Source of the DNA: Trypanosoma brucei
Lineage: Eukaryota
NCBI GenBank assembly: GCA_000002445.1
Contig: CM000207.1
Span: forward strand, 2,496,001-2,560,000
DNA: 64,000 bases
Direction of reading: 5' to 3'
Shown: in pieces, positions 6,001-34,692 of the stretch
Numbering within the stretch: position 1 is the stretch's first letter
Layout: the number at the start of each line of letters is the position of its first letter
The notes under the pieces: model-generated
The model's database searches: none
The model's input: only the letters and a program-made list of their open reading frames with translations
What the model was told of the DNA's origin: nothing
Made by a program: the position numbers and the translations under genes

Positions 6001-8097
6001 CAAGTGAAAAAATGAGAGATTCAGCTCAGTGCCATGTTCGTCCGTCATTTCAAAGAAGTATCTTCGGAGGTTTTGGTTTATAAGGAGCATGACGTCGGCG
6101 GGCGTTCTGGAAGGAAGGAAAAAGGGGAAGGAAGTTCCCAACTAAATAAGAAAAGAGACCTAGAAACCGTACATTCGTTTACCTCGGCGTCCTACACCGC
6201 AAACGCTGGGAAGGGAAAGGACACCAACGGGAGCTGCGGAGCAGCGTACAGGCCAATACAAGAAATCACAGCGGCTAGTCCCCAATTTCTAAAACTTCTA
6301 AACCAAATAAAACAGTTCCCATCACCGAAGGCGCCCGCGCATAAGGAAAGAACGAGGCTGCAACAACAAATGACAACCATTCATCACACTATTCTCCATT
6401 TTACCATCCGGAAGAAGTGCAGCACCGCATTCACCATGCTTCAGTATTACCAAACAAAGAATGACATTGCCAATATGCTCACATGATGGCCAAACACAAA
6501 CATTTCCAAAACAGGAAAGCCCAGTAAAAAAAAACCATTTAAAATAAAAAACAAACTGTAACGCAACAACGTCATACTAAAAGGGAAACAATATATTCGA
6601 ATCAATAATTATAATAGTCGAAATAAATAGTTAACACAAACATAAATACAAAAAAATCATTTAAAATAATAGAGCAAACAAACATAATTACGCACCACTA
6701 TGTTATTTTCTTTTTCCAACAGCATTGCAATCAAACTATTTACGGCAACATTCCGCCAATTTTAGATGCTGGTACACAATGTTCCTCACGGCGTATTGTT
6801 GTGCAAAACAGTGTTACCATGCAATTCGCAACCTTTTTGTACTCAAAAAACACGCCTTTCTGTACAACATGCTCCATGCGGGATAATTGATGCACAAAAT
6901 GTGCATTTTGTGCCATAATAGAAAATGCAATAGTAGGCAATAAGGCGTATTTGATGTATGGGCTTCGATTTCGTATCTATTTTTGCTTAAACCACTTTGC
7001 TGTTGTTCGGTGAAAGGTGTCGAGGACAACTGGGGTTACAATTGGTGCCGCTTTTGAGTGGTATAGAGGAGAAAAGCCACCGCTGAATACGCTTGTCTCA
7101 AGTTCTGCTTACCGCAGGTGTTACCGGCCGTGCCCGATTGTTTCCGTTGGCCATCTTCGTGTGCTTTGTTACTAGAAACTTCATATCTGCATCTGTTCAC
7201 AGTTTCTGGCCAAACTTCGTTTTCCATCTACAAAGTTATCCCTATCTTGCCCATGGAGCTTTCTGATAAACTGAAAGCACATATCTTTTCTATGAATTAG
7301 CATCCCTTCGCGAACTTACTACTAAACATTTGGTTTCCGCCATCACATTAAAAACCGCAGTGTCAACCATTTTCGGTGTTACATTTATACATTCTTGAGT
7401 TATTTACGGCAAATAATCTCCTCTCGTGTCATTTTTCTCTTTCTGCTATAATTTCACGCACTCTCTTGTTCTATTCTATATTTCTATTTCTTTAGTTTTA
7501 ATCTTCTGTTTTTATCACTGCAAATATCATCTCGACTTCTTTGGCTTCTGCACTGGATTCTCTCTTTCCCTCATATCATTGCATATAATAATACCAATCA
7601 TCATGTTTGTGCTTGAAGTTGCGCGCATTCCATCTCCCTTTACCTCGATCCTCCTCACTCACTTACTGTCCCACTTACCCACTTTCACTCATTGAACTCT
7701 TTTAACTCTTGTAACTCTTATAACTCTCCTAAGTGTTTTATTTTCCCTATTACTTAGGTCTTTAAAACCTCAATTCTTATAATATTGCTTCTATTGTTAT
7801 AATGCCCTCAACCACTGTTACCATTACTATAGCCATAACCCTTAAATACTCTCAATACTCATAATATCAACAAATAATAAAAATAGACCATATTAGAATA
7901 GCACTCATTTTTCATTCCATATTATTACAGTGCCTTGCTCCTATAGGCCACGATCATAACAAAACTACGTATTTTTCATATTCTCAAAAATTTATAAATC
8001 TTCACATTTTCATGAAAAAGTGTTAAAATATAGTAAAATCTCATAAAATAGGAATTTTCATAAATTTTCATGAAATTGCGTAAAAATCCTTAAAATG

Positions 8098-10620: not shown

Positions 10621-10689
10621 GAATTTTAAGGATTACTGCTCAATTTATTGAAATTTATGAAATTTTGCTATATTTCTTTATTTATCTTT

Positions 10690-10800
10690 AAGGGATATAT
10701 TTAATGATTATAATAGTAATAGTAATCATAATAATAACTATAATAAATATATAGAAGAGCGTTGTGAGTGTGTATATACGAATATTATAATGAAAATTGT
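10690..10800 (+). repeat. 70-bp repeat block: (TRR)n triplet tract plus the GAGTGTTGTGAGTGTGTATATACGAATATTATAAT core
   Basis: taatagtaatagtaatcataataataac...agaagagcgttgtgagtgtgtatatacgaatattataatg. The same core recurs upstream of every VSG cassette in the window. Confidence 0.75.
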
Positions 10801-13285: not shown

Positions 13286-14699
13286 TTGCTGGCGGAATTT
13301 GTGGCCGCGGTATTCGCACAGGATGAAGACTCCTCAGTCGAAGCAATAAAGAGCACGTGTGATGAAGCGGTGTGGCTTCACACCGTCCAAGATAATTATA
13401 TCAAAAATGTACAAACAGCTGCAGCTCGAAATTCTGACCTACTCACAGAAGCCAGAATCCTAACCCTAGCCGCGGCACAGTTCTCCGACCAAACACAACA
13501 GGTGGTACTAACCTCGTTAGCTGCCATTGCAGACCAGCGAGCAACTGCAGCGGCAGCGATCCTAAATCGAGAAACACCAAGCTTACTAGCAGCGGTAGCC
13601 TTGCTGAACGAACGACGCGGCAACGTCCGAGCACTGGCGCGCATTCTAAGCACGCAAGAATCCGCAACTTTCTCAGGGTCGACGGCAGCCGGTGGCGGCA
13701 ACGTCCTCTTTGCCGCGACAACAGTCAAGTGCTTTCTAATAGCAACACTGGACAAGAAACCCACAGCGGAGTGTACAGTAACGGAACAGAGCGCGACGAA
13801 GCTAGCAGATGCAGGCCACCACCTGGCCAAAATAACGAAAATGAAAGCGATACCGCTAACAAAATTTGGCATTCCTCAACTTGGTGTGGACATAGAAACG
13901 AAAGGTACATTCGCCGCAGGCAGTAACCAAGCAAACGAAAATAACAAATGCGCAGACAAACCCATAAAAAGCAGCGAAACCAACGGTTCCTGTTTAACGA
14001 AACTAGCACTAAATCAACCTACAGCGGCACCAACGGACGTGAAACTGAAAGATAAAGACGCCTTCGTAAACGTATCCAAAGAAAAAGACCACTACATCAC
14101 CACTGGTACCCAGGTAGCAAGCGCCACCTATAACCCAAGAGCCCTAACATCCAAACTTCTAGGAAAGATTGCGGATGAAACGGCCGATTTCCCGAGCGGC
14201 GACCCCGCCATTAAGAACGTAATCTATCTCGCACTTAGCCAAGAGAAAAACATCAAGGACAGCACCGACCAAAAAGCAGAAAATGTAAAACCCTGCTTGG
14301 CGGCGCCGGGAACAAACTACAAGACAAAATTTTTTGACTTTCAACGAAGACAACATAAAGTATACTGTTAGGGAACAAACCGTAACCACGAGTGTAAGGG
14401 AGGCTGCAAGCGATTTAAACTACGGAATAACACTAGCATTTTCGCATAAAAGACAACACGGCAATAGCCAGAGCAAGGAATTCCAGAGAGCAGGTGAAAG
14501 CACCGACAAAATCAAAGAAACTGAATGCAGAAATAGAAAAGACAGAGGCAAATACAAGGAAAAGAATGGGTGTGAATTCAAAGATGAGGATTGCAAAGTT
14601 AAAGTGACCACAGCAACAGAAACAACAGAAAACACCACAGAAAGCAATTCTTATGTCATTAACAAGGCTCCTCTTTTGCTTTTATTTTTGATTTTATAA
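13286..14699 (+). pseudogene. VSG: VSG pseudogene, no recognisable signal peptide; frameshift between the N-terminal domain ORF and the C-terminal ORF
   Basis: ORF 13286-14371 (TTG-initiated in the track) is Ala/Thr-rich. ORF 14334-14699 has a Cys-rich C-terminal domain (ECRNRKDRGKYKEKNGCEFKDEDCKVK) and ends ...ESNSYVINKAPLLLLFLIL-stop, a 17-aa-class GPI signal. Confidence 0.7.
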
Positions 14700-14733
14700 A
14701 ACTTTTTAGATTTCCCCCTCTGTTTTGCTATTC

Positions 14734-14749
14734 GGATATATTTTAACAC
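14734..14749 (+). promoter_or_regulatory. VSG 3'UTR 16-mer stability element
   Basis: GGATATATTTTAACAC, 35 nt downstream of the VSG stop at 14699. Confidence 0.65.
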
Positions 14750-15649
14750 TTGAAAATTCCGCGAAAATAATGTGTGTTTGTGTAAAATTGTGACTTTGTA
14801 AAAAAAAAATTGATCTGATAAAAATTTCTCTTTTTTGTCGCTGATTTTTTTCCAGAAAAACAAGAAGGTAAAAAAATGGCGAGGTTATGGAGGATTGAAA
14901 TTTCTAGCGACCATTGTTAGGGTTAAATTTTGGTTTTTTGACAATTTTTGGTTTTCGATTTTTCTAGTGACTTTTGAATTTTTAAGGTTGAGGTTTTTAG
15001 GATTATTAGAGTTAAGGTTTTTTTGTTAGACATTTTTGAGATTTATAAATTTTTTTGGCATTTTTCACATTTTTTAAAGTTTTTGGAGTTGGATTAATTT
15101 TATAAAAAAATTGGGGTTTTAAACTCTTTTATGCGTTTTATATTAATTTTCGTAACTTCAGATTTACACTGAACCCGGCATCAGTTGTGCTAAAACCAAA
15201 AACAAAAGAAAGGAAGGATAGATAGGGTTATGGCTAGAGTTAGGGTAAGAGTTAGGGTTATTCGGGTAGATGTTTTAATTCTCCTTTTTTGGTTTTTTTT
15301 AAATTTGTCATTTTTTCTTAGTGATGCAGCAGCTCTTTCTGTATGTCACCTCTAGGCCTTTTTCACTCAACACGCATCTTCTTCTTCATATTTTTACATA
15401 TTTATTTCATATCCACATCGTTACGATTTATTTCTAACACTTTTTTGAATTTGAGCTCTGCATTTTTCTCTGCGCGCGGCCTCAAAATTTTTTTTATGCT
15501 GGCGCGTGGCAGTTTTGCCTCACAAAACGATTTGCTTTCAAAGAAGAAATAATATAAAAAGAGACCTATTTGGAAGTAGGAGATTATCATGATCAGTGGT
15601 GAAGCATCATCGGCCCGATCTACCGCTGGCAGGCGACGTCTAATGCCGC

Positions 15650-16043
15650 TCAACTGTCAGTGGCGCGTTTTTAACCCCAAAGGAAAAGACGACAAAGAGT
15701 GCAGATTGATTGAGGAAACCAAACAAAAAGCAGCAGAGCAAGAAAATTGAGAAATACGAGGGAAATATGGCAAACATGACCAGAAAACTCACCACATAAC
15801 CGGAATATGAGGCAGTAAACAAGGATAACAAAAATTATTGTGTATAGAGAAGTGGGAAAGATAACAAGGATGAAAAAGACACAAAAATTCCGTGATTCCA
15901 GTTTTCTCGTCAATAAGAAAATTTCTCTGATGGCTGCTTCTGTTTTAAGTTTGGTAGTATTAAAAGATTTTTCGCTTAGTTTTATTAAATACTTCATTTT
16001 TGAGAGAATCTACAAAAATTTGAAACAATCTGATATATTTTAA
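15650..16043 (+). pseudogene. Orphan VSG C-terminal fragment (C-terminal domain, GPI signal, 3'UTR) with no N-terminal domain
   Basis: ...KGKDDKECRLIEETKQKAAEQE... then DSSFLVNKKISLMAASVLSLVVL. A 16-mer-like TGATATATTTTAATTA sits at 16031-16046, followed immediately by a 70-bp repeat. Confidence 0.6.
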
Positions 16044-16049
16044 TTATTT

Positions 16050-16195
16050 TTTAATAGTTAGAGTTATATAATAATTATGATATTAATAGAAGAGCACTGT
16101 AAGTGTATATATACTAATACTATAATAATAATAATAGGATAGTCTTGTGAGTGTGTTTATAATAATGTTATGATAAGAGTTGTGGTGAAGAATGA
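16050..16195 (+). repeat. 70-bp repeat block, about two units
   Basis: agaagagcactgtaagtgtatatatactaatactataataataataatagg ... cttgtgagtgtgtttataataatgttatgataagagttgtggtg. Confidence 0.7.
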
Positions 16196-17589: not shown

Positions 17590-19057
17590 ATGTTTAAGCC
17601 GACAGCAGTGGTGACGCTAACTCTTGTTTTTATCTGCATCGAACAGCATGCAGATGCCCAAGCACAGGAATCTTTGATTAGCGCTGTCACCACACCGTGT
17701 CATGAACTGCAGTATCTAAAAAAGTTAATAGGCCACTTCGAAGGACAATTACAAGCACCGAGCAACAACCTCAAAGATCTGGCGGCGGACTTCACCCAAC
17801 TGACAATCAGCCATGCGTGCTCAACGTCAACTTCAACGAAACAAGCGGTGGGAGCTTTTCTCGCGAAAAGATCTGAAGCAATGCACTAACAAGAAGCGAT
17901 TATTCAAGCTGGTAGAGGCACAGTAACGAAATTGTTAAGAGCACTTAAAGACAAGAGGATGCAAACACGAACACTAATAAGGTCTGCACTAGACAAACTA
18001 ACTCTAAGCGGCGGATCAAACCCGCAAACGGGACAGGCCGGCCTAAGCAGGGCCACCGACGAGCAGCGCGACGTGCAAGACACAGGCGATGGAAAAGACA
18101 GTAACACTTGCGACACCGAAGTCACAGCCGGAGCGCATAAAGAGGAAACAGTGATCACAGAGATACCCGCATCGAAAATATACAGCTTATCCCCGATGCC
18201 AAATTCAACCCACCGAGCTACAAGCTCAAAATAGCTTCGGCAGTGAGGGCTCAATGAGCACAATGAAACCAGGAGCCTACGCGATGACCCCGACATATGA
18301 CAGCACACCGCTCGGACAACTAACAAAAGCGTTCGGAGTAGTGTCAGCAACGCGTGACACGAGAAATGACCGGCCGACCAAAACAACCTTATTTAAGCCA
18401 GCTGGCAAAAATGCTGGCTGCGAAGATGACAACACAGACGAAAAAAAAAACCTAACAACGACTAAAAGATTAGCAGCCCTGCTTTTCCGGCACCGACACA
18501 TCAACATAAAGACAGTCGCCCGACCTCTTCAAAAGAGAAAAAATGACCTATAAAGTGACTCAACATTACGCAAAATAGCCCAGCTATTCAAACACCGAGA
18601 AACCAATAGTGCCGAAGAGGACAACAAGCAAACTTCAGCTGTCAAGGCGTTGCTCCCCAACGGCGAAGCAACCTTAACTTCAGATCTAAAACCGTTGGAA
18701 AACGAGCACATCAGTTACAAAGCAGACAACGGTATAGCAAAGATAAACTTAAAGGAAGCCAACAGCGCCGGCGAAATTGCGAAAACTCTTGATTTTTGTT
18801 TCGCAAAAGAACACGCCGCCAAAGTAGCGGAAAGAGCACAAAAGACAAACCCAGATACTAAAACAGAAGAAAAATACAAGGAAAACACAGAAGAAAAAAT
18901 GCAAAGAAGACAAAGATTGTGAGCTCAAAGATAGTAAATGCAAACTTAAAGAGGGTGTAAAAGCTGAAAATGATGTGAAAACTACAAACACCACAGGAAG
19001 TAATTCTTTTATCATTAAAAAGGTCCCTCTTTTGCTTGTATTTTTGATTATAGTATA
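17590..19057 (+). pseudogene. VSG: VSG pseudogene: true ATG and signal peptide, multiple frameshifts, GPI signal retained
   Basis: MFKPTAVVTLTLVFICIEQHADAQ starts at ATG 17590. ORFs 17590-17889, 17932-18234, 18254-18553 and 18650-18922 sit in shifting frames. The C-terminus reads ...CKLKEGVKAENDVKTTNTTGSNSFIIKKVPLLLVFLII. A degenerate 16-mer TGACATATTTTAGCAC lies at 19114-19129. Confidence 0.7.
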
Positions 19058-19698
19058 ACACATTTAAGAAATTTGCTCAATTTTTATGAAATATTCTAAC
19101 GTTTACCAATATCTGACATATTTTAGCACCTTTAAATTCCCCGTAAATTGTGTGCTTTTGTTAAATTTTGAGTGTGTACAATTTTTTGTTGCTTAAAATT
19201 TTCTCTTTTTTCTTTTGTTTTCTGTTGATTTTTTTTTGAATTTTTTGGGTTAGTTTTTTTGGTATGTTCGATGTAGTAAAACAGACAAAAAACCTAAAGG
19301 CAAGCTAGAAAATGTTAGGGGTAGGGTCATTCGGGTTGTGGTTACGATTTGTAATTTTTGTTTTAATTTTTTAATGATGCAGCGGCTCTTTCTCGATGAA
19401 ACCCTAACACTTCTTACTCCAGCAGACATCTTTGCTTAAATTCTCTTGATATTCATTTTTACCACGCCGCCGTTACGCTTTTGTTCATTTTGATTTTGTG
19501 AATTTCAGCTCCTCATTTTTGGCTGCGCGCGGCGTTAAACATTTTTTTTCGTTAAAACAAAAGCTGGCGCATGGTCTAAGCTGCTGCACACAGCTTTTAT
19601 TTTTATTTTTTTACAGTGGCGTGTGGCAGTTTCGCTGCGGCCCTCCCTCTGCTTTTAAGGTGAGGTAGAAGCAAGCAAAAGATATTCAGCAGCAACAC

Positions 19699-20085
19699 AT
19701 GAGGCCAATTTGGCAGCAAACTTTAGCGACGTGTGCAGACAGCAAGCGTTACACAACAAACGTGACCTGCAAAGCTAACGACTGCAAATGGGAAGGGGAC
19801 AGCGAAACCACTGCAAACCGAAAGATGGAGAAGCGCAGACAAACACAGCAGCAACAGAGGGAACTGTATCAACACAAGGCCCTAATTGTGACAAGTATAC
19901 TGATCCATAGAAATGTGCCAAGGTGCCACGCAAAGCTAAGGAGGGAAAGAAATCTGTTTGTGATTGGATTGATTTCATGGACGGACAGGAAAATTTTTGA
20001 ACCAAAATTCCGTGATTCAAGTTTCCTTGTAAGTAGAAAATTGGCTCTGATGTCTGCTGCTTTTCTGCGTGTGGTATCATTTTAA
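19699..20085 (+). pseudogene. Orphan VSG C-terminal fragment, paralogous to the fragment at 15650-16043
   Basis: ...CKANDCKWEGDSETTANRKMEK ... FRDSSFLVSRKLALMSAAFLRVVSF-stop, then TTGATATATTTTAATAC at 20167-20183, then a 70-bp repeat at 20285-20345. Confidence 0.6.
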
Positions 20086-20284
20086 AGATTTTTACTCAAT
20101 TAAATCAAATTTATTAAGTTTATGAAATTTTCTATTTTGAGAAAATTTGCTAGGATTAGCTAACAATTGATATATTTTAATACTTTTCGATAAAATATGA
20201 AAATTTAGAAAAATGTGAATGATAATAGCCTATGATTGCGATGTAAAATTGTAATATGATATGAAATGTGAGTTCTTTTCTGAT

Positions 20285-20345
20285 TTTGGTGAAATAGTAA
20301 TAGACTGTTGTGAGTGTGTATATACTAATATTATAATAAATGTCT
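20285..20345 (+). repeat. 70-bp repeat (single degenerate unit)
   Basis: aatagactgttgtgagtgtgtatatactaatattataataaatg. Confidence 0.65.
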
Positions 20346-22077
20346 TGACGAACACATGGACTACAAAAATAGAAGAATTTAAAATCAGAGAGGGTACAAT
20401 GGAAGTGAATGAGTGAAGGAAAGTTCAAGGAATATATTTTATACGGAGAAACAGAAAGACAGAGAGAGTGTGGGGAAGAAATTAACGCAATAACAGACGC
20501 CGAAATAAAGAAGGGACTCTCATATGCCAACGAATGTGGAGGCAGTAATTATGAATAAACAGAGCACAGCGACCGAGAAAATGCAACTCCTACGTTTTAT
20601 ACAGTGATATCAAAGGAGAAACTGCTGGCGAAAGTGAGAGGGTTGGAAACGCCGTGAAAAAAGTCCATATATGAGCCAGTTGTGGCTATTTACGAATTGG
20701 AGGGAATAAACAGCGATACCTTTCTAATCCCGTACCTGTATTACAGGAAAACAGTAATACATTTCAATGAGTGGTTAATTGACACAAGGATTGTGACTGA
20801 GAAAACAAAAGATGACAATTAACAAAGCAAAATTGAAGAAGAAAAAGAAACTTTCAGGACTTTAATTGACAAATCTTAGACGGCGTCGTCAACAGCTGAA
20901 AGCAGGCATAAACAAAAGTTTATGCATGCTCTGGAAGAATAAAAGCCTCATCTTCTTATGACAGCGGAATGTGACAACAGCTATATAGCAGTAAATAGAA
21001 CAAATTAGAAACCACAAGATAAGAATCTTAACTCGTAGAAAGTAGTCTGGTGTTTTATATAGCTATAAGAATGAATTTGGGAACAAATAAAAAATATTCA
21101 AAGGGTAATGGACAGGAAGAAAAGTCTGTTAAACAACAGTTATGTCAAGTTCAATAGAAATAGAGAACGAAAATAACAGATGAGAATTCTTACTTTTTTG
21201 CTTTGTCCTGATTAGTTTGCTCGAAGTATCCAATTCTATCTTTTATTTACACAGGAAATACACGCAATAAAACAAGGCAAATGATTTTAAATGTCCAGAT
21301 CAGAGACGGTTGCCCTCAGTATTTTACAAGTAGAGTCTACGTTACTGTTTTTAAAAAGCAATTGAAGCTGGTGGAGCACAGTCAGGCGGTTTAAGCGGCT
21401 GTAAATGGATAGGGTCTGCTCAGTAGAAACAAAATTTAGGAATGTGAAAAAACGCCCGTCCTCAGAGCTGTCACCCCGGATAAAACAGAAAATCATTACT
21501 TACAGCAGTTTTTATGGGCACTAAATAAAATTGCAAGAACAAAAGTGGTGAATAAAAAGGCAATTCCAATGCAAAAATTAACTGCTATACGGGTTTGGCA
21601 AAACGGTTTCTCAAAAGGGTTCAAAGTCATGCGTACGAGTGAAGAGTCAGTGTTATGTAGTCGCTGATAAATTCATCCACAAAACAGGAATTGGACTACA
21701 ATAGAAGAACACAGCAAACATTAATGAAAGATGCTTTAGATATAGAATGGTATTTATCAAATTTGAAAATCGAGGCTATTTGCCTTAAGTGGGTGCCGTT
21801 TTCCGTTACTAAAGGAAGATGCTGGCCTCTTGAGTTCTTCTTTTTTGTTCCATACGTGTTTCTTAAAAGTAACAGACATCATGAAGCTATAACCACACGT
21901 GCTAGCACGTGACTTACAGAACAAGCAGAAAAATCGGCTCCATCGAGGCAACCCTAATATCGAGAAGGGGCGGAAAACAACATACCTACGTCTCCACCGG
22001 CAACCAATTGGCACAAACTCAACTTCTCTTGATATCCTTCACTCTAGGGACACGAGCTAGCACGAAGACACGAATTC

Positions 22078-24927: not shown

Positions 24928-26394
24928 ATGCAAAATCATGCCGTGTATTCTGCGGCTATGGCATTGTTCCTGGAATTTCAATCTCAGCTCAGCTCAGCAG
25001 GGCAAGTATCAGAGCCAGTCAGAAAAAAAACAGTATCAGTGTGCTCGGAACTGAAGTATCTAAAAATTGCAGCATGGAAGATAGAAGAAACAGCAAAGAG
25101 CGGCGAACCAGAGGCCAGAAAACTTGAAGAGTACGCTGATGCGTGGCTTTTACTGGTAATGCACGAAAGACAGGAGCAGAAAAGGCTAGCGACCGCCGCA
25201 CTCGCAGCATACAAGGTACAAAATGCGAAAGAAGCAGACCGATTAGTGTCCCGGCACAGAGCACTAGCGGAAGCCGCCGCACAAAGATTCTTACAAAGAG
25301 CGGCGTACTCTGAGGCTTTGATGTACTCCGAGCATGCCGTACCGAGCCAAACGCCCGCAGCCGACAACGCCGGGCCTCCAAAAACCTGCACATTCACAGC
25401 CTCATTCGCGCATAAAGTGCCAACCAGCTGCGACACAGACCAACAAGAGTCTGCTTTCCTTGGCGACGCAAGCTTCCACAACAAGGGAATCACGCACTTG
25501 CATATACTCAAAGAAGACAGATTAATCCCCCGTATAGGCAAATTTGTAGCAAAACTGAGAGGAACAGTCGACAGCCTGCAAACAGCCGCAACAGATTACG
25601 GCGGCGACAGCGATACCGACGTAACAGCAAATAACATAAAAGCGACACTGACGCTAAGCCCACTTACGGAAACACCAGACGGCGACGGCTACGCCTTAAC
25701 AGTAGACGGCCAAATCAAAGGGACCTGCAAGAAACCAACAGAAAAGGCAGAACAATCGCTGCGGTCGCGTGAATACGTAGCGGAGCCTTTCTTCGAGTGC
25801 ACGAAACAACCACTGCCTTCTGTCCCAGACCCAGAAAACTTCAGCGGAAGCGAACTCAAAAATAACGCTTTAATCAAAAAGTTATACAGAGAGAGCTGGC
25901 AAGTATACAGCGGCAAAAAAATAGAAGACTCTGACGCCGAAAAACAGCTCGAAAAGATATTTGGCGACAACAGTCAAAAAGTTTAAACCAATTTCGTTAC
26001 GCTACTAACAAGCACCAGGCTGCGAGTGGTGGCCGCAGCAGCTGAAAATGCAGCGGACTTGCTTACAATAGCCAAAAACACTCAGTCGGCACAAGCGATT
26101 ATTTTTATGACATCAGCCAACAAGGCGCCAGGAAAAGAGCAGAAACAAGAAACGTCGCAAGGAGGTGGCAAAAAAGATGCAGCAGAAGACAAAGCAGGAG
26201 AAAATAAAGACGGGGACAATAAAACAAACGCAGATGCATGCAAAGGAACTGAAGAGGGTAAATGTGACACAAAAAAATGCGCTTGGGATAAGGACAATAA
26301 AGAGTGCAAAGCTAAAGAGGGGGCAGCAGTTATTTCTTATCTGATGAAGGTCCCTCTACTGCTTGCATTTTTGCTTCTGCAATTAAGTGTTTAA
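24928..26394 (+). pseudogene. VSG: Near-intact VSG interrupted by a single in-frame TAA (25984-25986) between the N-terminal and C-terminal domains
   Basis: ORF 24925-25986 (353 aa, true ATG at 24928, MQNHAVYSAAMALFLEF signal) and ORF 26026-26394 are in the same frame. The C-terminus reads CKGTEEGKCDTKKCAWDKDNKECKAKEGAAVISYLMKVPLLLAFLLL. A 16-mer CATATATTTTAACAC lies near 26476-26490. Confidence 0.75.
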
Positions 26395-26634
26395 AGATTT
26401 TGATTAATTTCATGAAATTCAAGAAATTTAGTATTTTGATATGTTTTCTAATATTGTCTAAATTTGCTAATATTTCATATATTTTAACACTTTTCCACGA
26501 AATGTAAAATTTTTGAAATTTAAAAAATAGAAAAATGAGTATGATAGTGACCTATGAATGTAAAGTAGTAGGGTTATAGGGTTTAAGAAACGGATTCTGT
26601 CCTTAGAACTTTTATTTTTGTTAATTTTTTATTT

Positions 26635-26745
26635 ATTTTACGTATATCTTTAGGAATATAGTAATGATAATCACAGAGGGTTGTGTTGTGAATGTGTGTA
26701 TATACGAATATTATTATAAGAGTTGTTGTGAAAACTGGATTTGTG
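26635..26745 (+). repeat. 70-bp repeat block
   Basis: tagtaatgataatcacagagggttgtgttgtgaatgtgtgtatatacgaatattattataagagttgttgtg. Confidence 0.7.
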
Positions 26746-27983
26746 GTCAAAATAGTAGCGCTTCAAACAATTAAAAGGCTGCAATAGGGGTAAAGAAGTG
26801 TGAGCAAAGTATGAAGAATATTGTTCAATAAAACAAAGAGAGATATGAAAGAAGATGTAATTTTAACTGTTTCAAACATAAACATGACCATCGGCATCAT
26901 GTAAAAAAGAAATGAAGGAATATAACGTGCAAGCTAAATTGAATGGATTTAACTAACATAACGAAGCGGTAATAGTTGAGAATGACCAAATAAATCATTT
27001 CTAATATGCTTCTAAGAACTCTTCGATAGATGCATTTTTCCTAAAGAAACTTTCATGGATAAACAGCAACATAACAAAGGGAAAGAAGCTTATAAAGTGC
27101 ATATAATTAGTCTATAATTTTTTCTCTAATCAGAACTAACCACGCTTACCAAACAATACCTGAGAAAACAGCTGTTAACTTCATGAAATAATCTGCAAAG
27201 AGCGAAAAACACCACCAAATATAGAAAACCTAACGCAAAGTAGAATAATTAAGCAAAAAGGAAAGGAATTGACGTAATAAAGATATTATTGTATCATAAG
27301 ATAGTGTGGAAGTTCTGACATTTAGTGACCTCTATATTCAGGCTAATTTGAAAGGGTATTAGATAGAACCGAGCTTTTTGTTGTCTTCTAGATTCAAGTA
27401 TGTAAATGTGTCATCAATGAGCTGAAAAGACAGCTGTAGTAGTAGTAGTAGTGTAAAAGTGATGTGAGTTATAAGAGAGAAAAAAATACCGTCACAGAAG
27501 CCAGAAAAATACCACCATCTTGCAAAGAAAATTAACCGACATGGTGAAGCTTCGGTAGTATAGCAGTTACGATAGCTGCACAAGCAAAGGTGTAGCATGT
27601 ACCTTAAAAACATAATAAATGCAATGAAGAAGAAAAGTTCAATACCAAAATGTTACCTGGAAAGACACCTCTGTAATACATAATAAAGCCAGTTATGATT
27701 TTACACAACAGACAAACAGACACAACTGCCAGCAGCTAGATGCAGACGACAAGCGGCAGTGCACAGAAAGCGATCCTCAACTCGGTGCTGAGCACATAAA
27801 AGCCTGGCTAACAGCGGACGTACACGAAAAAGCTGACCAATCAGGCGCAATACAGTGTAAAAGACAGGCTTTCATCTGCTAATGCTACACTGCCTCCTGT
27901 TTCACAAGGTAACAAAACGATAGCACCCTCCAGAAAAACGAAACATCTCTTATAACACGCTAAAGAAAGTGCAATAACTACAC

Positions 27984-29402
27984 ATGCGGAAAGCCCGACG
28001 GCATTTTCTGGCTAAACTAGCGCTGGCGCTCGCATTCACAGCGACCACGGTCGGAGTGGACGGCGCCGCCAATGACAACGCCAAAGCATTCAACGCTCTC
28101 TGCACCATAATCCAGATAATGGGCGGGACACCCATGTTACCCCCAGCGCCGACTACTAGCGAAATAGATACCCTAATGACGGACGTAAGGCAACTAAATC
28201 TATCAGCATCAGAAGACACCCTATATGACTCCAACTTTGAACCACACACAGACGACGACAAAAAGCCTGAAGAGTATAAAACAAACAGGGAAGCATGGAA
28301 AACAGCAAAAAACTTAATCGAAAAGGGAGAAACGGAAATTGAAGGAGTGAAGCTAGCGCGGCCTGGCGCATCGCACGCACGCAAAGTCGCCAGCAATATC
28401 CTAAATCGGACGCTAAAGACAATCGCCGCCCTAAAAAACAAACTTAAAACAACAGTCACGGCAGCAGACATACGCAGCGACTTGGATAAAGCTTTGTTCG
28501 GAAAGACCGGGCAGCACAGCGCCAAGGCAGGTGACACCTACGCGGACTCGGGCGCCAACGGCTGCGGCGACACCAACCCAGCCGGAAAATCCCCAGGAAT
28601 GTCGCTTTATTCAGACTTGTTGTGTCTCTGCTCGGTATCAGGCGGCGCATCGGCCAGCTGCACAGGGAGCGCTCTGTCGGCAGTCACGTACGGCGACGGC
28701 ACACAAACCACACAAGCCGCAGGAACGACGATCGCAGCAAAATGCCCAAAAGCAGGGAAGGTTCAAGTAACGGCCGGGGAACTACGGCATGCCAAAAGCA
28801 TTTTCACAGTAGCTCTCAAGGCGGACAAAGTAGCCGCAGTGCAGGCCGCAAATATTCTGGGTAATCCCTCAGGAAAGCAATGTGATGGCGGAGCAAACGG
28901 CAATTGCGTTTACTACAAAGACACCAGGGCCGACGCCACCCTCGACATACAGTGGCTCACACACATAGACGATGCCATAGCGAAATTTGAAACGGCAGAT
29001 GCGGAGGCGGCAGTCAACAACAGAATCGCAGCGCAAGCAGCGGCGTTAAAAGGGACCGCTCTGGCAGCCTATCTACAAGCTTTAAAAGGCGATGCCAAAA
29101 AGCTGACAACGGCAACAGCGATACCAGTATTAAGCAGCACGACACCGAGCACAAGCGACTGCAACAAACACCGATCAAAAGACGACTGCAAAGACCCCTG
29201 CAAATGGAACGAGAATGCCACTGAAAAAACTAAAAATTTCTCATTAGATCCCGTAAAATCGGCAGAACAACAAGCAAACCAAGCAGTGACAGGAGAGGGA
29301 AAGAAAGAAGAGGTGCAGGGGAAGCACGAAGGAAAGTGAAAATATGTTTGCAACTGGGATGATAACGCTTGCAAACATTTTAGTTTCCTCTTCAATAATT
29401 AA
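27984..29402 (+). pseudogene. VSG: VSG with a complete 451-aa N-terminal/C-domain ORF but a decayed tail: in-frame TGA at 29337-29339 and no hydrophobic GPI signal
   Basis: ATG 27984 gives MRKARRHFLAKLALALAFTATTVGVDGAANDNAKAFNALC... The C-domain reads CNKHRSKDDCKDPCKWNENATEKTKNFSLDPV. After the stop the frame continues KYVCNWDDNACKHFSFLFNN-stop. A perfect 16-mer TGATATATTTTAACAC lies at 29528-29543. Confidence 0.75.
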
Positions 29403-29527
29403 ATGACTATGATGATTATTGATTTTATGAGTTTTGTAGAATTTTAGTGTACCAAAAAACTTTGCTCCATTTTGTAAACATTATGAAATTTTCTATTTTG
29501 AGAGGGTTTTTAAAATTTAAATAATTT

Positions 29528-29543
29528 GATATATTTTAACACT
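29528..29543 (+). promoter_or_regulatory. VSG 3'UTR 16-mer (perfect consensus)
   Basis: TGATATATTTTAACAC. Confidence 0.7.
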
Positions 29544-29694
29544 TTTTGATTTAAAAATTGAAAATTATTAACTTTTTGAGATTTAAAAGATATGATAAAA
29601 ATACAATTTTGGTGTAATATCACCCCATGGGTATAAAGTTGTAAGGCGATATGGCGCCAAAACTGATTGTTATGCTGACTTTGTTTATTTTGCT

Positions 29695-29800
29695 TATTTT
29701 CTGAGTAATAGTTAGAGTTATAATAGTATTAGGAAGATAATAATAATAATTATATAAGTGTAAGTGAGTGTATCTATAATAATATAGTAGGTGTGGTTGT
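29695..29800 (+). repeat. 70-bp repeat block
   Basis: aataataataattatataagtgtaagtgagtgtatctataataatatagtaggtgtggttgtg. Confidence 0.65.
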
Positions 29801-31595
29801 GAAAATAAAATGGATCACCTAAGTAAAATCAATTAAAACAATGGCAAGGTGCGATAGAAATAAGTAAGTGAAAGAGGAAGAGAAATATTATCAAGTTAAA
29901 TGCATAAAGTTAGATGGAAAAGGACAAAAAAAAGAAAAAGAGAAGTATTATGCCTAGTTTCTGAAGCAGCTATGAGGGTGGTAATTGCTAATAAGAAGAA
30001 GATGGATAGATCAATCAGTGAGAAAGCAGAGTCTAATGTACAGGCAAATCAATCCGCTATAACATATGAAGAAATAGTAATTGAAGATGAAACATAAGTC
30101 CCAAAAATACAAAAAAGAATGGAGGAGTGCGAAAAAAATACGGCAGAGCGAAGAGCTATAAAAGGACTATAGATCTCTACATTGTACTCACAAATCGATA
30201 GATTCTACTTCAGAGATGGTGGCCCTGTAGTTTTTTATTTAATAGCAAATGCTAATTTATGGCTCTGACAGAGAAGATAAGGAAGGGGGTATTGAATAGG
30301 TGTAAGGAAAATATCTTAGTTTTCTCGTCAAATGTAATACTAATAGCAAACATTTGTGTTTAGTAATATAATATTACGGGGGAAAAATTAAAACTATGAC
30401 TACCAATGCATTACCATGAATAGAATAATGAAAACACTTGAACTGCTAAAAATAGCGCATGTATAAACTGTTATGGAGCCTTTATGAAGTAGAGAAAAAC
30501 AATGCCACTATTTTTCAAGTTATGTATTTGCATACTGGAGAGATATTAAGAGTTTGAAAGAAACTAGGGCACACCTCCAAAAGTTCTCTGATATTCAGGT
30601 AAAAAAGTGGATTGATAAGACTAAAGTTGTCAAAAAACACTTTACGAACTCAAACTGAAGGGTCTTATGTGGTTCTGACTATATTAAACAACGAGATCTA
30701 AAATAAACAGAAACCAAACCGTGTTCGTCAAAAAATGCCGTTACTTTTATATTCCAGCAGCTGTAAAAGCAAATGAAACTGTAGAAAGCAGAATCCGTTA
30801 AAAACCGTAGAGGAAGATATTAAAGACAAAGAGTATTAAATTATTTTAACCGACAAACGACTTGTATTCCGGAGAATAGATGACAATTTATATATGAGAG
30901 ATGAGAAAAGTTTAGAATCTTTTTAATTATGGTTACATGGAGTTTGGATTACAAGTCATGACACAACTTGAAAAAAATTGATCATACACTAAAAAGGTGT
31001 GATACGTTAAAAGGAGTCGAGCAACGTTCTCACCAACAAAAGCAAGACCATATATACCCAATAATGATAAGAAACAAAAAAATCTATGAACAGCAGCTAG
31101 CTTCGAGATTAGCTCAAACCATAGGGCTTGTACTCCACAAACAAAAGAAAATAAGAACACCAATGCAGCTGACAGGAAAGCAAGGCCGCTTTCGTCAGCG
31201 ATGGGTGAAGTATGCAGCTGAATTAGTTGCCAAACCAGTACTGATACAGTGGTAACTATAAAAAAATTCCAGTTGTGATGTGAGCTGAAGCTGTGTGAAA
31301 TTAAGTGGAATTGTCATAAAGGAAATAGTGAGGATAGAAAGGGTTGATAAATAGAGAGTCAAATGGTTGAATATTGCAACGTAGGTAAGTTTAGAGAGCT
31401 ACTAGAAGTTTCTCGAAAAGTGGTGAATGGTGCTAACGAATATTTAACCTAAACTTACCAGAAAATAATTTAACTTCAAACACTACTGCAGACAATACGA
31501 CTCCAAGGCAACAACTCTCACCTAAAACAGACTCAAGCAGCGACAGGAAACGCAACCAAATTCATCATTAAACACACTCTTAAAATGAGAGGAAG

Positions 31596-33275
31596 AATGC
31601 TGTATCGATTGGAGGGATACAGCTCAGACACTAAAAACAGACACTCGTTTAACTTCTTCTCTAAACTTTATCACAGCTATACAAACAAAGTACGACGAGC
31701 ACGGCAATACAGGCACAAAGACTTCTGTTAGCTTTAGATTTGATAGCTTTTCAGATTGAAGCAGCGAACAAAGACGCAGTAGACGCAACGAAGCTGGCAC
31801 AACTTTGCAAAAAAACTCTAGGGATGAGGAAAACTGCGGCGGAAGTCAAGTCTGACCTAGCAGCAGGAGATGCAAAGCTAGCTCAAACGGAACAGCTCAG
31901 GGACCAAATGACTATATATGGCTTGCTCGGGGAATCGAAAAAATCAAAGGAAATCGCGATGATAGCTGCACAAGCCACGAAAACCATCATTCATTCGTTT
32001 TACACGATGATGCAGCGGCAGGCAAGTGCAGGTATGGTAAAGGCGGCGACGACCGGCATACTCGGCGGGCAGATTATAGAGGCAATGAATTTGCTAGAAC
32101 AGCTGAGGGCAAGCACAGCGACAATCAATGGAGCGTGCTTAACTCAAACAGCGAGTGCAAAGGCGGACGCTCAACTTAGCCGTGAGCTAGCAGGCTGCAG
32201 CAGCACCGACATACCGACCTCAAGCGAACTAGACTCGACAAACAGATTCGATAGCACAGGTCTACAAGGGGCACTAGCATCCGGCAGCGCGACAGGAAAC
32301 GGTGGTTGCGACTTCACCAAATGCAATTTTATAGCACACCCACCATCAGACATAAAGTTTTTCGACGACCAAGAAATGGCAAACCAACTGAGCATAGTGG
32401 CCGGGCTGCTTTCAACGAGCTCTGGCGGTGCGACGTTTAACAACCCAGGAAGTTTAAAACACGATACGGCAGACTCACCAACGATGCCTGCAGTACTAAC
32501 AGCGATCAAAGCAGCCTACAACTACGAAGAAACAGCATTGAAAGAAACAGTTGGCCCCTTTAAGAACCTATATGCCATGCTAGCAGCCGAGGGGAGATTT
32601 TCCCACGTAAACTTCGCAATAAACGGCAGATTCAAAGCACCAGAAGCAGGATCATAACAACAGAACCTAAAACAGCAAATAACAGCAATACTCAGCACCG
32701 ATGCGGGCAAATTAAAAACCGAGTTCGTCGAAAAATTATTAGCGGAGGACTTAGACTTTCCACCGGAACTTCAACTAGAAGTAAAAAAGATAAACCAGAT
32801 ACCAACTGACAGGCTCCATGAAGTCGCAACATTTTTACTTCAGCGACGCGGTTCTCAGGTTCCAGAAGCAAAACCATGTTCAGACCACAATCCACTGCCA
32901 AACCTGCCAAATTCGAAAACAGACACAACTTGCGAAAAGAAAGGGGTAGATAACTGCAAACCCCCATGCAAATTGGTTGAAGATAAAGGTGGCAAAAAGA
33001 AGTGCACATGGGATAAGGATGAAGTACCGAAACATGCAGCAGGAAATCAAGCAGGAACAGGAGAGACAAGTGCCTGGGTAGATTGCAGTAAACGTGACAC
33101 ACTAGAGAAATGTAAGAAGGCCAAAAAAGGCCAAACCACCAAAGTTTGCGGATGTAAGGGAGAAAATAGTGACGGAACTAACAAATCCGGTTACAAATTC
33201 AGCTCTTCCAGTTTTCTTGTTAATAAGAAGTTTGCTCTGAGTAAGGCTACTTTGATGAGTTTCGTGGTATTCTAA
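31596..33275 (+). pseudogene. VSG: VSG pseudogene: degenerate 5' end, no clean signal peptide, intact 23-aa-class GPI signal
   Basis: ORF 31740-32657 (TTG-initiated in the track) is Ala/Thr/Ser-rich N-domain. The C-terminus reads CKPPCKLVEDKGGKKKCTWDKDE...KVCGCKGENSDGTNKSGYKFSSSSFLVNKKFALSKATLMSFVVF-stop. A 16-mer TGCAATATTTTAACAC lies at 33315-33330. Confidence 0.65.
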
Positions 33276-33439
33276 ATGTTTTCTATTTTATGTGTGAAGA
33301 GATTTGCTAAAATTTGCAATATTTTAACACTTTGTGATGAAACTCTGCAAATTAGTCAAATGTGTATGATGGTGGCCCATAGGTAAAACTTATTAGTAAC
33401 ACAGTGTTAAAAATAATTGATATTGTAAAATGTATTCTA

Positions 33440-33570
33440 GTTCAATTTATTTTGATTATATAATAATAATAATTATTATTATTATAACAAATAAAAATAA
33501 ATAGTAATAATAAGATGAAAGTGTTGTAAGTGTGGATATACGAATAGTATAATAAGAGTGGTGGTGAAGG
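33440..33570 (+). repeat. 70-bp repeat block
   Basis: ataataataattattattattataacaaataaaaataaatagtaataataagatgaaagtgttgtaagtgtggatatacgaatagtataataagagtggtggtg. Confidence 0.7.
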
Positions 33571-34599
33571 AATAATGGAGGTGTAAAAGAAGAGTACTTA
33601 AAATAATGGAAAGGGTGAAGTGGGTATAAGTGACTGAATGGAAGTGGATAAGAGGAAGTGGTACAGCTCGTAGGGGGAACATTATTAGAGGAGACACAGA
33701 GAAGAAAATATAATGTACACAGTGATAAACAGTAACATGGCGACGTGCTACATTTTACAAAGGAAAATGATGGAAGGAACAATAAGGGAGAAAGAGAATA
33801 TAGTCTGAAGGAAAAAACTAAGTCAGTGCATGATATGCAGAAGCAGCGAGAGAATACAAAAAAGAAAAGAATATGTAGAATGAGATAAGAGGCCCCGCGA
33901 CAACGAAGCTGAGCACAGGCAAAAAGATTGGAGAGGAGATTGCACCCTGTATTTCACTCAAAGATGCATCGATGTATTAGCTTTTATGGTGAAGACTGTG
34001 TTTTTTAAACAAATAGCGGATACTTATAACCAACAGTGAATAAAAAGCAGTGGAAGTAGAAGATGGAAGGGATTAAGTATGTGTGACGTAACGCCAAAGT
34101 TTTTTCTCATTAGATATAATAATTTTGGCCGACTTATGTGATAAACAATATAATATTATATGGAAGAAAAATTTGAAACGAGGACTATCATTGAATTGCC
34201 GTGGACACCAAATAAAGAATAAATGTGCTGAGACTTCTCGATGTAGCGCATACATCAATATTTAAAAGATATATATATATACATTACCGAAATTTCCAAA
34301 TTATACTCCTCCAACCACTTAGAGGCGCAAAGACAGCCCGTTAAAGCGATTTAAAGTATACATAGTTTATTTAAAAATACACACGGCCGCGGTATTGATA
34401 GGGAGAAACAAGTAAACTCAAAAAGAAAAAGTGTATTCAGGACCGCAATTACAGAATAACAGATAACGACCGACACTTAAGCTTTAATACAGTGGAAAAC
34501 GTCGAGCCCATGCGCACGACAAAGCGTATATGACATAACTTCATTATGGATGAATCTACAAAAGAGGAGTTGGGCACCATTAGCAGCATGTGGAGACCA

Positions 34600-34631
34600 C
34601 AAATAATAGATACATATAAATAAATAAATAA

Positions 34632-34667
<36 letters not shown>

Positions 34668-34692
34668 ATATATCGATATATATCATAAGTAA
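34600..34692. repeat. Compound microsatellite (AAAT)n(AT)n with CGATATATAT duplications
   Basis: aaataaataaataaataaatatatatatatatatatatatatatcgatatatatcgatatatat. Confidence 0.9.

What the first reader, a model, noticed from the sequence alone, without database searches (positions are those of the whole stretch)
14700..15330. Conserved post-VSG block carrying degenerate telomere-like (TTAGGG/CCCTAA) repeats in internal array positions
A partly conserved block follows several VSG 3'UTRs (...aaattt.tcttttttg...gagtatgatagtg.cctatgaatgtaaagtagtagggttatagggtt). Degenerate TTAGGG-like runs occur at 14930-15020 (gttagggttaaa, ggtttttagg), 15225-15270 (gggttatggctagagttagggtaagagttagggttattcggg), 19318-19345 (gttaggggtagggtcattcggg), 26565-26590 (gtagggttatagggtttaag) and, inverted, near 7830-7860. 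A C-strand aaccctaacac lies at 19392-19404. This looks like a relic of telomere-proximal origin of these cassettes (formerly telomeric VSGs internalised), or an interstitial telomeric seed.
Basis: seen in the sequence. Interest (0 to 1): 0.55.

Follow-up and report, generated by a model that had tools for sequence, protein, structure and literature searches.

The report
Decayed telomere-repeat scar behind internal VSGs
Two neighbouring silent surface-antigen (VSG) pseudogenes in a Trypanosoma brucei internal gene array are followed by a short, decayed run of the telomere repeat TTAGGG, most likely a scar showing this flank once lay next to a chromosome end; it is a modest evolutionary footnote, and most of the other "telomere-like" spots listed are chance or belong to a different conserved motif.

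Summary
The window is a T. brucei TREU927 subtelomeric VSG array. One tract, 15223-15260, is a real degenerate telomere tract. It has seven in-phase hexamers whose consensus is exactly TTAGGG. It scores 25.5 against a maximum of 13.5 in 200 shuffles. It is the best non-AT hexamer-periodic locus in the window.

A shorter tract at 19314-19344 lies at the homologous position of a second copy of the same roughly 0.7-0.9 kb flank, which I call block X. Block X follows only these two cassettes. The other 11 cassettes carry a different, well conserved flank.

The sites at 26565, 7830 and 19392 are at chance level as telomere matches. Exact TTAGGG is not enriched in the window: 21 observed against 22.5 expected. 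The tract reads as G-strand in VSG sense. It lies 523 nt (A) and 251 nt (B) after the stop codon, inside the 200-1590 nt VSG-to-telomere range published for expression sites.

A telomere-derived relic is the best reading (about 0.55). It is untested against real telomeric flanks, which I could not obtain.

Separately, most cassette junctions carry a conserved TTAGGGTTA-centred motif at the 5' edge of the 70-bp repeat.

The parts
13286..14699 (+). VSG pseudogene A. Two overlapping ORFs, 13286-14371 and 14334-14699, are separated by a frameshift. It ends ...NSYVINKAPLLLLFLIL, which I read from my own knowledge as the short 17-residue type of GPI-signal C-terminus.
   Evidence: a 99% identical 153-aa database ORF. 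The 3' end is 70% identical to that of VSG B from 14630 onward.
14700..14836 (+). 3'UTR region of VSG A. It has a perfect conserved VSG 16-mer core (GATATATTTTAACAC, 14735-14749) and a pyrimidine tract AAAATTTCTCTTTTTTG (14820-14836).
   Evidence: It aligns to 18986-19211 of copy B at 68-70%.
14837..15222 (+). Block X, left part (copy A). It is T/G-rich and C-poor. It carries weak TTAGGG-like runs (GTTAGGGTTA at 14916-14925, 182 nt after the 16-mer; TTAGAGTTAAGGTT at 15006-15019), a 28-bp periodic stretch (15031-15086) and a degenerate 3'UTR-like insert that copy B lacks.
15223..15260 (+). Main degenerate telomere-repeat tract. In-phase units are (A)TAGGG TTATGG CTAGAG TTAGGG TAAGAG TTAGGG TTA(TTC). 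It reads as G-strand in VSG sense and contains a perfect 12-bp duplication, AGAGTTAGGGTA x1.9.
15261..15530 (+). Block X, right part (copy A). It is non-coding and about 72% identical to copy B. Nearly invariant islands: TAGGGTyATTCGGGT (the junction), TGATGCAGCrGCTCTTTCT, CTGCGCGCGGC and TGGCGyGTGGCAGTTT. Its origin is unknown.
   Evidence: No match to VSG proteins, Rfam or the ingi 5' end.
15652..16045 (+). 5'-truncated VSG C-terminal-domain remnant with its own 3'UTR and a 16-mer-like TGATATATTTTAAT (about 16031).
   Evidence: tblastn hits to VSG C-termini are weak from 15652 and clear from about 15809.
16058..16189 (+). Two 70-bp repeats that open the next cassette, preceded by the junction motif TAGTTAGAGTTATATAAT (16055-16072).
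18986..19211 (+). 3' end of VSG pseudogene B (...NSFIIKKVPLLLVFLIIV), its 3'UTR (degenerate 16-mer at 19115-19129) and its pyrimidine tract. This is homologous to 14630-14836.
19212..19313 (+). Block X, left part (copy B, the short version). It includes TTTGGGTTAG at 19244-19253.
19314..19344 (+). Copy-B telomere-like tract: GTTAGGGGTAGGGTCATTCGGGTTGTGGTTA. It sits at the homologous position and has the same GGGTyATTCGGGT junction as copy A.
19345..19640 (+). Block X, right part (copy B).
19699..20085 (+). 5'-truncated VSG C-terminal-domain fragment (Pfam PF10659, E=1.9e-7). It is followed by a 16-mer at 20169 and a 70-bp repeat at 20298-20381.
26567..26587 (+). Motif M1 of the common (type-1) array flank, here reading GTAGGGTTATAGGGTTTAAG. 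It is a copy-specific telomere-like variant of a motif whose consensus is only weakly telomere-like.
   Evidence: It is identical in the T. equiperdum copy, L001 465-479.
7826..7850 (-). Junction motif M2 of the inverted cassette (TTTAAGGGTTATGGCTATAGTAATGG), at the 5' edge of its degenerate 70-bp repeat.

Best explanation
The tract at 15223-15260 and its shorter homologue at 19314-19344 are a decayed interstitial telomere-repeat tract. It is embedded in a distinct VSG 3' flank (block X). That flank most likely derives from a telomere-proximal VSG locus.

Proposed history:
1. A telomeric VSG, its 3' flank and the first few degenerate or true TTAGGG units became joined, once, to internal DNA. 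That internal DNA is X-right, with 5'-truncated VSG C-terminal remnants, then a 70-bp repeat, lying beyond it in both copies.
2. The composite flank was later duplicated within the array and diverged to about 70% identity.
3. The upstream VSG bodies were replaced by gene conversion, so the N-terminal domains of A and B are now unrelated.
4. In copy A the tract was re-lengthened by a 12-bp slippage duplication.

No present function is required; it is a recombination scar.

Shown here:
- The tract is real and non-random, and its unit consensus is TTAGGG.
- It reads as G-strand in VSG sense.
- Two copies share one junction.
- The flank differs from the common array flank.
- A truncated VSG remnant lies downstream.

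Inferred, not shown: the telomeric origin and the order of events.
For: - Tract statistics.
- Unit consensus and orientation.
- Shared junction GCTAGA...TAGGGTyATTCGGGT, with about 70% identity across the 3'UTR, X-left and X-right, while the N-terminal domains show no similarity.
- Block X is not the common array flank. The type-1 profile hits 11 cassettes but not A or B.
- The tract is not part of a 70-bp repeat. The junction/70-bp profile hits 14 cassettes but not the X tracts.
- Weak TTAGGG-like runs cluster upstream of the main tract within X-left. [quoted passage not shown]
- The tract starts 523 nt (A) and 251 nt (B) after the stop codon. The VSG-to-telomere distance measured in 17 expression-site clones is 200-1590 nt (PMC2567434).
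- A pyrimidine tract follows the 16-mer in A and B but not in the common flank. A flank that once served an expressed telomeric gene would be expected to have one; this last step is inference.
- 5'-truncated VSG C-terminal fragments lie downstream of X-right. This is what a recombination scar would leave.
Against: - No bona fide telomeric VSG flank could be retrieved, so homology of X-left to telomeric flanks is untested. The TREU927 records could not be retrieved. Only three T. equiperdum contigs were obtained, and they contain neither block X nor telomere repeats.
- X-right is conserved in both copies and its origin is unknown. The tract may therefore be an internal component of a longer flank, not the old chromosome terminus itself.
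- Part of copy A's score comes from a recent 12-bp duplication.
- Copy B alone is only marginally above the null (13.0 against 12.0).
- The tract starts with a string resembling the junction motif M2 that is common to ordinary cassettes (ATAGaTAGGGTTAT against ATAGTTAGGGTTAT; B's TGTTAGGGGTA equals the M2 copy in L003). It could therefore have grown out of that motif.
- Two copies amount to one evolutionary event, so n=1.
Confidence: 0.55

Rival explanations
1. The tract arose locally. It is a small G/T-rich hexamer microsatellite that expanded by replication slippage from the TTAGGGTTA-centred junction motif (M2) found at ordinary cassette boundaries, or from any GGGTTA-like seed in a T/G-rich flank. 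It has no telomeric ancestry.
For: - A perfect 12-bp tandem duplication inside the tract shows ongoing slippage.
- The first 14 nt of the A tract match the M2 consensus at 13 of 14 positions. B's TGTTAGGGGTA is identical to an M2 copy in T. equiperdum.
- A's first GTTAGGGTTA (14916) lies 182 nt after the 16-mer. The usual 16-mer-to-M2 distance is 176-188 nt (distances worked out by hand).
- The whole flank is T/G-rich and internally repetitive.
Against: - A profile of M2 plus the 70-bp repeat does not detect either X tract.
- The common-flank profile does not detect A or B at all, so there is no colinearity beyond the short motif.
- The seven units differ from one another by scattered substitutions around a TTAGGG consensus. 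That is the pattern of a decayed array, not of a recently amplified variant unit.
- The tract is also present, in a different register and length, in the 70%-diverged copy B. It therefore predates the 12-bp duplication.
Confidence: 0.28
2. The tract is a functional interstitial telomere-like element. Possible roles: a binding site for telomere-duplex proteins (TbTRF and its partners) that helps silence or tether the array; a recombination landmark pairing array donors with the telomere side of an expression site; or a seed for new telomere addition after breakage.
For: - The junction island TAGGGTyATTCGGGT is identical at 14 of 15 positions, in a flank that is about 70% identical overall.
- A TTAGGGTTA-centred motif recurs in sense orientation at many cassette junctions. 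It matches at least 8 of 9 positions in 9 of 21 junctions, against 3.6% in shuffles and 0 of 21 antisense.
Against: - Only two sequences are available, so the apparent conservation is not statistically meaningful.
- The tract is heavily degenerate: at most two perfect TTAGGG units in A (non-adjacent) and one in B.
- Both host genes are pseudogenes.
- Tract length differs three-fold between the copies.
- No binding or chromatin data can be consulted with these tools.
Confidence: 0.1
3. It is pure chance resemblance in AT/G-rich sequence.
For: - Exact TTAGGG occurs at the expected rate in the window (21 against 22.5).
- Several of the listed sites (26569, 7830, 19400, 14916, 15006) individually score within the shuffle range.
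Against: - The 15223-15260 tract scores 25.5 against a shuffle maximum of 13.5.
- It is the top complex hexamer-periodic locus in the window, and its best-fitting unit is exactly the telomere repeat.
- A second tract sits at the homologous position in copy B.
Confidence: 0.03

Closest known systems
'TTAGGG-like' degenerate repeats 3' of telomere-proximal T. brucei VSGs (Aline & Stuart 1989, as cited by Hall et al. 2013, PMC3708902)
   Same: Degenerate TTAGGG units lie a few hundred bases 3' of a VSG, on the sense strand, after the conserved 3'UTR. The distance falls inside the 200-1590 nt VSG-to-telomere range of expression-site clones.
   Different: Here the tract is chromosome-internal. It is followed not by (TTAGGG)n but by about 270 bp of unknown conserved sequence, then a truncated VSG remnant and the next cassette's 70-bp repeat. 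Sequence homology to the published flanks could not be tested because the 1989 paper is not held.
Interstitial telomeric sequences as rearrangement scars, for example the short TG1-3 tracts between tandem Y' elements in yeast subtelomeres and the vertebrate fusion-site ITS (from my own knowledge)
   Same: A short, decayed, correctly oriented telomere-repeat tract sits at the junction between tandem subtelomeric repeat units. It is interpreted as a trace of a former chromosome end.
   Different: It is only about 40 nt long and highly degenerate. It is present at 2 of about 14 junctions in this window. No head-to-head arrangement was seen, and no functional data exist.
T. brucei 70-bp repeat, the 5' boundary of the VSG cassette
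   Same: It lies between VSG genes and is purine/T-rich. The junction motif M2 (..TAGTTAGGGTTATAATAGTAAT..) directly abuts the TAA-rich start of the first 70-bp repeat. M2 resembles the first units of the A tract.
   Different: The X tracts are not detected by a profile of M2 plus the 70-bp repeat. They lack the GTGTTGTGAGTGTG...ATACGAATATTATAATAAGAG core.
Telomere-derived 29-bp subtelomeric repeats of T. brucei (Van der Ploeg et al. 1984; Weiden et al. 1991; recalled from memory, not checked)
   Same: These are degenerate derivatives of the hexamer lying proximal to true telomere repeats.
   Different: No 29-bp periodicity was found in the tract. TRF reports period 12 for the tract, and a 28-bp period only in the unrelated T-rich stretch 15031-15086.

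Membership tests
Interstitial telomeric sequence (telomere relic) | Tandem units whose consensus equals the species' telomere repeat, beyond chance | tested here: met
   Seven in-phase units have consensus TTAGGG. The score is 25.5 against a shuffle maximum of 13.5, and the class ranks 7th of 366 hexamer classes.
Interstitial telomeric sequence (telomere relic) | Orientation consistent with a former chromosome end (G-strand 5'->3' pointing away from the telomere-proximal gene) | tested here: met
   Both tracts read TTAGGG-like on the VSG sense strand, 3' of the gene.
Interstitial telomeric sequence (telomere relic) | Proximal flank homologous to sequence that adjoins true telomeres elsewhere in the genome | not testable with these tools
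   No T. brucei telomeric contig could be retrieved. The three T. equiperdum loci hold no run of two or more perfect TTAGGG units.
Interstitial telomeric sequence (telomere relic) | Breakpoint immediately distal to the tract (unrelated DNA joined there) | tested here: inconclusive
   X-right follows in both copies and matches nothing else here. A 5'-truncated VSG remnant lies 0.4 kb further on. With one ancestral junction, the breakpoint cannot be shown.
Telomere-proximal VSG 3' flank (Aline & Stuart type) | TTAGGG-like repeats a few hundred bases 3' of the VSG | tested here: met
   The tract starts 523 nt (A) and 251 nt (B) after the stop codon, with weaker runs upstream in X-left. The published range is 200-1590 nt.
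Telomere-proximal VSG 3' flank (Aline & Stuart type) | The flank runs into the terminal (TTAGGG)n array | tested here: not met
   The locus is internal. The tract is followed by X-right, a VSG remnant and 70-bp repeats.
Common (type-1) array VSG 3' flank | Profile match from the 16-mer through TGATAGTGGCCTATG, M1, a T-run and M2 to the 70-bp repeat | tested here: not met
   nhmmer with the 11-sequence profile hits 11 cassettes (E from 1e-14 to 1e-41) but not 14735 or 19115. The 26.5 kb and 7.8 kb sites are members.
70-bp repeat | Match to a profile of the repeat's 5' edge (M2), TAA-rich region and GT-rich core | tested here: not met
   The profile hits 14 cassettes, with no hit at 15223 or 19314 at E<=10.

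The most novel reading that the evidence does not exclude
The telomere-like tract of block X may be only the best-preserved example of a general rule. Most array cassette junctions in this window and in three T. equiperdum contigs carry a conserved sense-strand motif centred on TTAGGGTTA (M2). It usually lies about 176-188 nt after the 3'UTR 16-mer and directly abuts the first 70-bp repeat.

If M2 marks the point where telomere repeats begin at telomeric VSGs, internal VSG arrays would be stacks of former chromosome-end units (70-bp repeat, then VSG, then the start of a telomere). Alternatively, M2 could be a working landmark for telomere-binding proteins or for recombination with expression-site telomeres.
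Probability: 0.2. Interest if true: 0.6.

Novelty: new member of a known kind. Interest (0 to 1): 0.3.

Why it matters
If the relic reading holds, it is direct sequence evidence that at least some cassettes of the internal silent VSG archive passed through a telomeric location. That bears on how the archive grows and exchanges with expression sites and minichromosomes.

It also gives a marker, block X, for tracing such movements across strains.

The practical consequence is small. Both host genes are pseudogenes, the tract is short and decayed, and degenerate TTAGGG-like repeats next to telomeric VSGs have been known since 1989.

The wider junction motif (TTAGGGTTA at the 70-bp repeat edge) is the more interesting lead. 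It is cheap to test against complete assemblies.

Tried and rejected
1. Retrieving telomeric VSG loci.
- TREU927 proteins are not retrievable by the contig look-up.
- Only three T. equiperdum OVI contigs were obtained (L001-L003). None has block X or telomere repeats.

2. Two metagenome pattern scans, one for the block-X junction and one for a 70-bp repeat core, found no trypanosome DNA.

3. Literature.
- None of the ten searches turned up a paper describing internal telomere-like tracts behind array VSGs.
- Aline & Stuart 1989 and Marcello & Barry 2007 are not held.

4. Tract as a degenerate 70-bp repeat edge: rejected at profile level.

5. Block X as a variant of the common flank: rejected.

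6. X-right as VSG coding remnant, ingi/RIME end, or known RNA: no support. There is no convincing conserved fold.

7. A and B as a recent tandem duplication: rejected. The N-terminal domains are unrelated and the flank is only about 70% identical.

Full report
**Context.** The window is a subtelomeric VSG array of Trypanosoma brucei brucei TREU927. The intact VSG at 36076-37620 is 100% identical to a TREU927 protein on a 3.06-Mb record. Pfam finds A-type and B-type VSG domains in many ORFs and an ingi-type retrotransposon ORF at 43821-48401 on the minus strand. The conserved VSG 3'UTR 16-mer occurs 9 times against 0.2 expected. 70-bp repeat cores mark about 14 cassette boundaries.

**Checking the observation.** They are not equally meaningful.

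- Exact TTAGGG is not enriched: 21 observed against 22.5 expected.
- A double repeat with up to two mismatches is enriched: 10 against 3.1 expected, with no shuffle of 100 reaching 10. The excess is one cluster at 15222-15257.
- With a phase-locked score (+1 match, -1.5 mismatch), 15223-15260 scores 25.5. In 200 shuffles (dinucleotide-preserving within 500-nt blocks) the window-wide maximum averaged 9.6 and never exceeded 13.5.
- Its seven in-phase units are ATAGGG, TTATGG, CTAGAG, TTAGGG, TAAGAG, TTAGGG and TTATTC. Their column consensus is exactly TTAGGG.
- TRF shows a perfect 12-bp duplication inside the tract (AGAGTTAGGGTA x1.9). I estimate by hand that collapsing it still leaves about 18.5.
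- Every hexamer class was scored in the same way. TTAGGG ranks 7th of 366. The six above it are AT or TAA microsatellites at two other loci. For this locus the telomere unit fits better than any other hexamer.
- The run at 19314-19344 scores 11.5 ungapped and 13.0 gapped, against a null maximum of 12.0. That is marginal alone, but it sits at the homologous position of a second copy of the same flank (see below).
- The runs at 14916, 15006, 26569, 7830(-) and 19400(-) score 8-10.5, within the shuffle range.
- The C-strand run at 19400 is not conserved in the other copy.
- By my count, seven of the 35 segments scoring at least 7 lie in roughly 0.75 kb of the two X blocks.

**Two different flanks, not one conserved block.** Aligning the sequence from the 16-mer to the first 70-bp repeat shows a well conserved common flank, which I call type 1. 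Its order is:

1. the 16-mer;
2. TGATAGTGGCCTATG;
3. motif M1 (GTAaGG.gATAtGG..aaaaatgagtgcTATTCT);
4. a T-run;
5. motif M2 (aTAGTTAGGGTTATAATAGTAAT);
6. a TAA-rich stretch;
7. the 70-bp core.

A profile of this flank finds 11 cassettes in the window (E from 1e-14 to 1e-41) but not the cassettes ending at 14735 (A) or 19115 (B).

A and B carry a different flank, block X, found nowhere else in the window or in 44 kb of T. equiperdum sequence. The consensus string in the finding splices pieces of the two types.

**Anatomy of block X.** Similarity between A and B starts in the last codons of the VSG (14630 ~ 18986). It runs at 68-72% identity through the following parts:

- the 3'UTR and a pyrimidine tract (to 14836 ~ 19211);
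- a T/G-rich left part, which is long in A (with an extra degenerate 3'UTR-like insert) and short in B;
- the telomere-like tract;
- a shared junction, TAGGGTyATTCGGGT;
- about 270 bp of non-coding right part, containing the nearly invariant islands TGATGCAGCrGCTCTTTCT, CTGCGCGCGGC and TGGCGyGTGGCAGTTT.

The N-terminal domains of A and B show no DNA similarity. Downstream of X-right, both copies have a 5'-truncated VSG C-terminal domain with its own 3'UTR (about 15652-16045; 19699-20185, Pfam PF10659). The next cassette's 70-bp repeats follow. X-right matches no VSG protein, no Rfam family and not the ingi 5' end, and it has no convincing conserved fold.

**Interpretation.** Several independent features fit a telomere-type origin.

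- The tract reads as G-strand on the VSG sense strand, which is how a telomere lies behind a telomeric VSG.
- It starts 523 nt (A) and 251 nt (B) after the stop codon. The measured VSG-to-telomere distance in 17 Lister 427 expression-site clones is 200-1590 nt (PMC2567434).
- Weaker TTAGGG-like runs precede it. [quoted passage not shown]
- The flank differs from the ordinary array flank. It has a pyrimidine tract after the 16-mer that the ordinary flank lacks.
- A truncated VSG remnant lies about 0.4 kb downstream, beyond X-right, as a recombination scar would leave.
- The shared junction and 70% divergence mean one old joining event, later duplicated. The VSG bodies were replaced by conversion afterwards.

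I put this reading at about 0.55.

**What weakens it.**

- I could not obtain a single true telomeric VSG flank. The TREU927 records could not be retrieved. Two of the three homologue searches returned almost nothing usable. The metagenome collection holds no trypanosome DNA.
- X-right is conserved and unexplained. The tract may be an internal part of a longer flank, not an old terminus.
- The start of the tract resembles junction motif M2: ATAGaTAGGGTTAT against the consensus ATAGTTAGGGTTAT. B's TGTTAGGGGTA is identical to an M2 copy in L003.
- A's first GTTAGGGTTA lies 182 nt after the 16-mer. The usual 16-mer-to-M2 distance is 176-188 nt.
- A local-expansion origin from such a seed therefore remains a serious rival (about 0.28). 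Against it, neither profile detects the X tracts or flanks, and the tract predates the 12-bp duplication because the diverged copy B also has it.
- A functional role (about 0.1) has no support beyond one conserved 15-nt island in a two-sequence comparison.

**A wider pattern seen on the way.** Within 120 nt 5' of the first 70-bp core, a sense-strand match of at least 8 of 9 positions to TTAGGGTTA occurs at 9 of 21 cassette junctions (window plus T. equiperdum). Three of those matches are perfect. In shuffles the rates are 3.6% and 0.12%. No junction has an antisense match of at least 8 of 9. Most of these matches are M2. A further copy is in L003. These are homologous copies of one motif, so this is conservation, not independent recurrence. 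Three window/L001 pairs are orthologous.

It does mean that the conserved cassette boundary contains one and a half telomere repeats. Whether that is an older relic of the same kind or a coincidence within a conserved motif cannot be decided here. I give the general 'stacked chromosome ends' reading about 0.2.

**Novelty and verdict.** Degenerate telomere repeats beside telomeric VSGs, and interstitial telomeric scars in other eukaryotes, are both known. An internal example behind array VSGs did not turn up in my searches of the searchable library. Two key papers could not be read.

I class the finding as a new member of a known kind, of modest interest (0.3). It is a real, non-random, oriented telomere-repeat relic shared by two pseudogene cassettes. 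It is probably a scar of exchange between a telomere and the array. Most of the other listed sites are either chance or part of a different conserved junction motif.

Noticed in passing
window 29709-29733, 16055-16072, 61860-61880, 7826-7850(-), 10686-10706, 37867-37888, 26647-26666, 49890-49910; L001 3597, 11753, 15363; L002 60, 3494; L003 13088: A conserved junction motif (M2, consensus ~aTAGTTAGGGTTATAATAGTAAT) sits at the 5' edge of the first 70-bp repeat. It usually lies 176-188 nt after the 3'UTR 16-mer. Its core is one and a half telomere repeats in VSG-sense orientation. It matches at least 8 of 9 positions at 9 of 21 junctions, against 3.6% in shuffles, and never in antisense.
   Followed up: partly
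window 15261-15530 and 19345-19640: The right part of block X is AT-rich and non-coding, but it carries GC-rich islands that are almost invariant between copies only about 72% identical overall: TGATGCAGCrGCTCTTTCT, CTGCGCGCGGC and TGGCGyGTGGCAGTTT. The last is tandemly duplicated in copy B. It matches no VSG, ingi end or Rfam family, and its origin is unknown.
   Followed up: partly
window 43821-48401 (-), element about 43.3-48.63 kb: An ingi-type non-LTR retrotransposon has an uninterrupted 1526-aa ORF (endonuclease, reverse transcriptase, RNase H, zinc finger). It is inserted in the VSG array. Its 5' end, CCCTGGTGATGCCGGCCACC..., lies near 48626.
   Followed up: partly
window ~8.1-9.4 kb: Cassette orientation switches here. 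The cassette ending at 8034 (and probably those before it) is on the minus strand, and all cassettes from 9.4 kb onward are on the plus strand. This is a divergent junction inside the array.
   Followed up: no
window 15652-16045, 19699-20185: Two cassettes have stacked VSG 3' ends: a complete VSG 3' end plus a second, 5'-truncated C-terminal domain with its own 3'UTR before the 70-bp repeat. This is the kind of leftover expected from partial gene conversions that end inside the C-terminal domain.
   Followed up: partly
L001 1-11505 vs window 26106-37583: T. equiperdum OVI contig CZPT02001055.1 is colinear with this part of the window, at only 95.7% identity falling to 89%. Colinearity ends just inside the 3' end of the VSG at 36076-37620 (last aligned base about 37583). 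That is far more divergence than I would expect in core regions between these taxa (expectation from my own knowledge), so the copies may be paralogous or the subtelomeres may evolve fast.
   Followed up: partly
window 34606-34683: An (AT)n/(AAAT)n microsatellite is the highest-scoring simple repeat in the window.
   Followed up: no
window 15031-15086: A 28-bp periodic T-rich stretch (2 copies, 78% matches) lies inside the left part of block X in copy A. Its period is close to the 29-bp subtelomeric repeats described for T. brucei, which I recall from memory, but its sequence is not visibly derived from TTAGGG.
   Followed up: no
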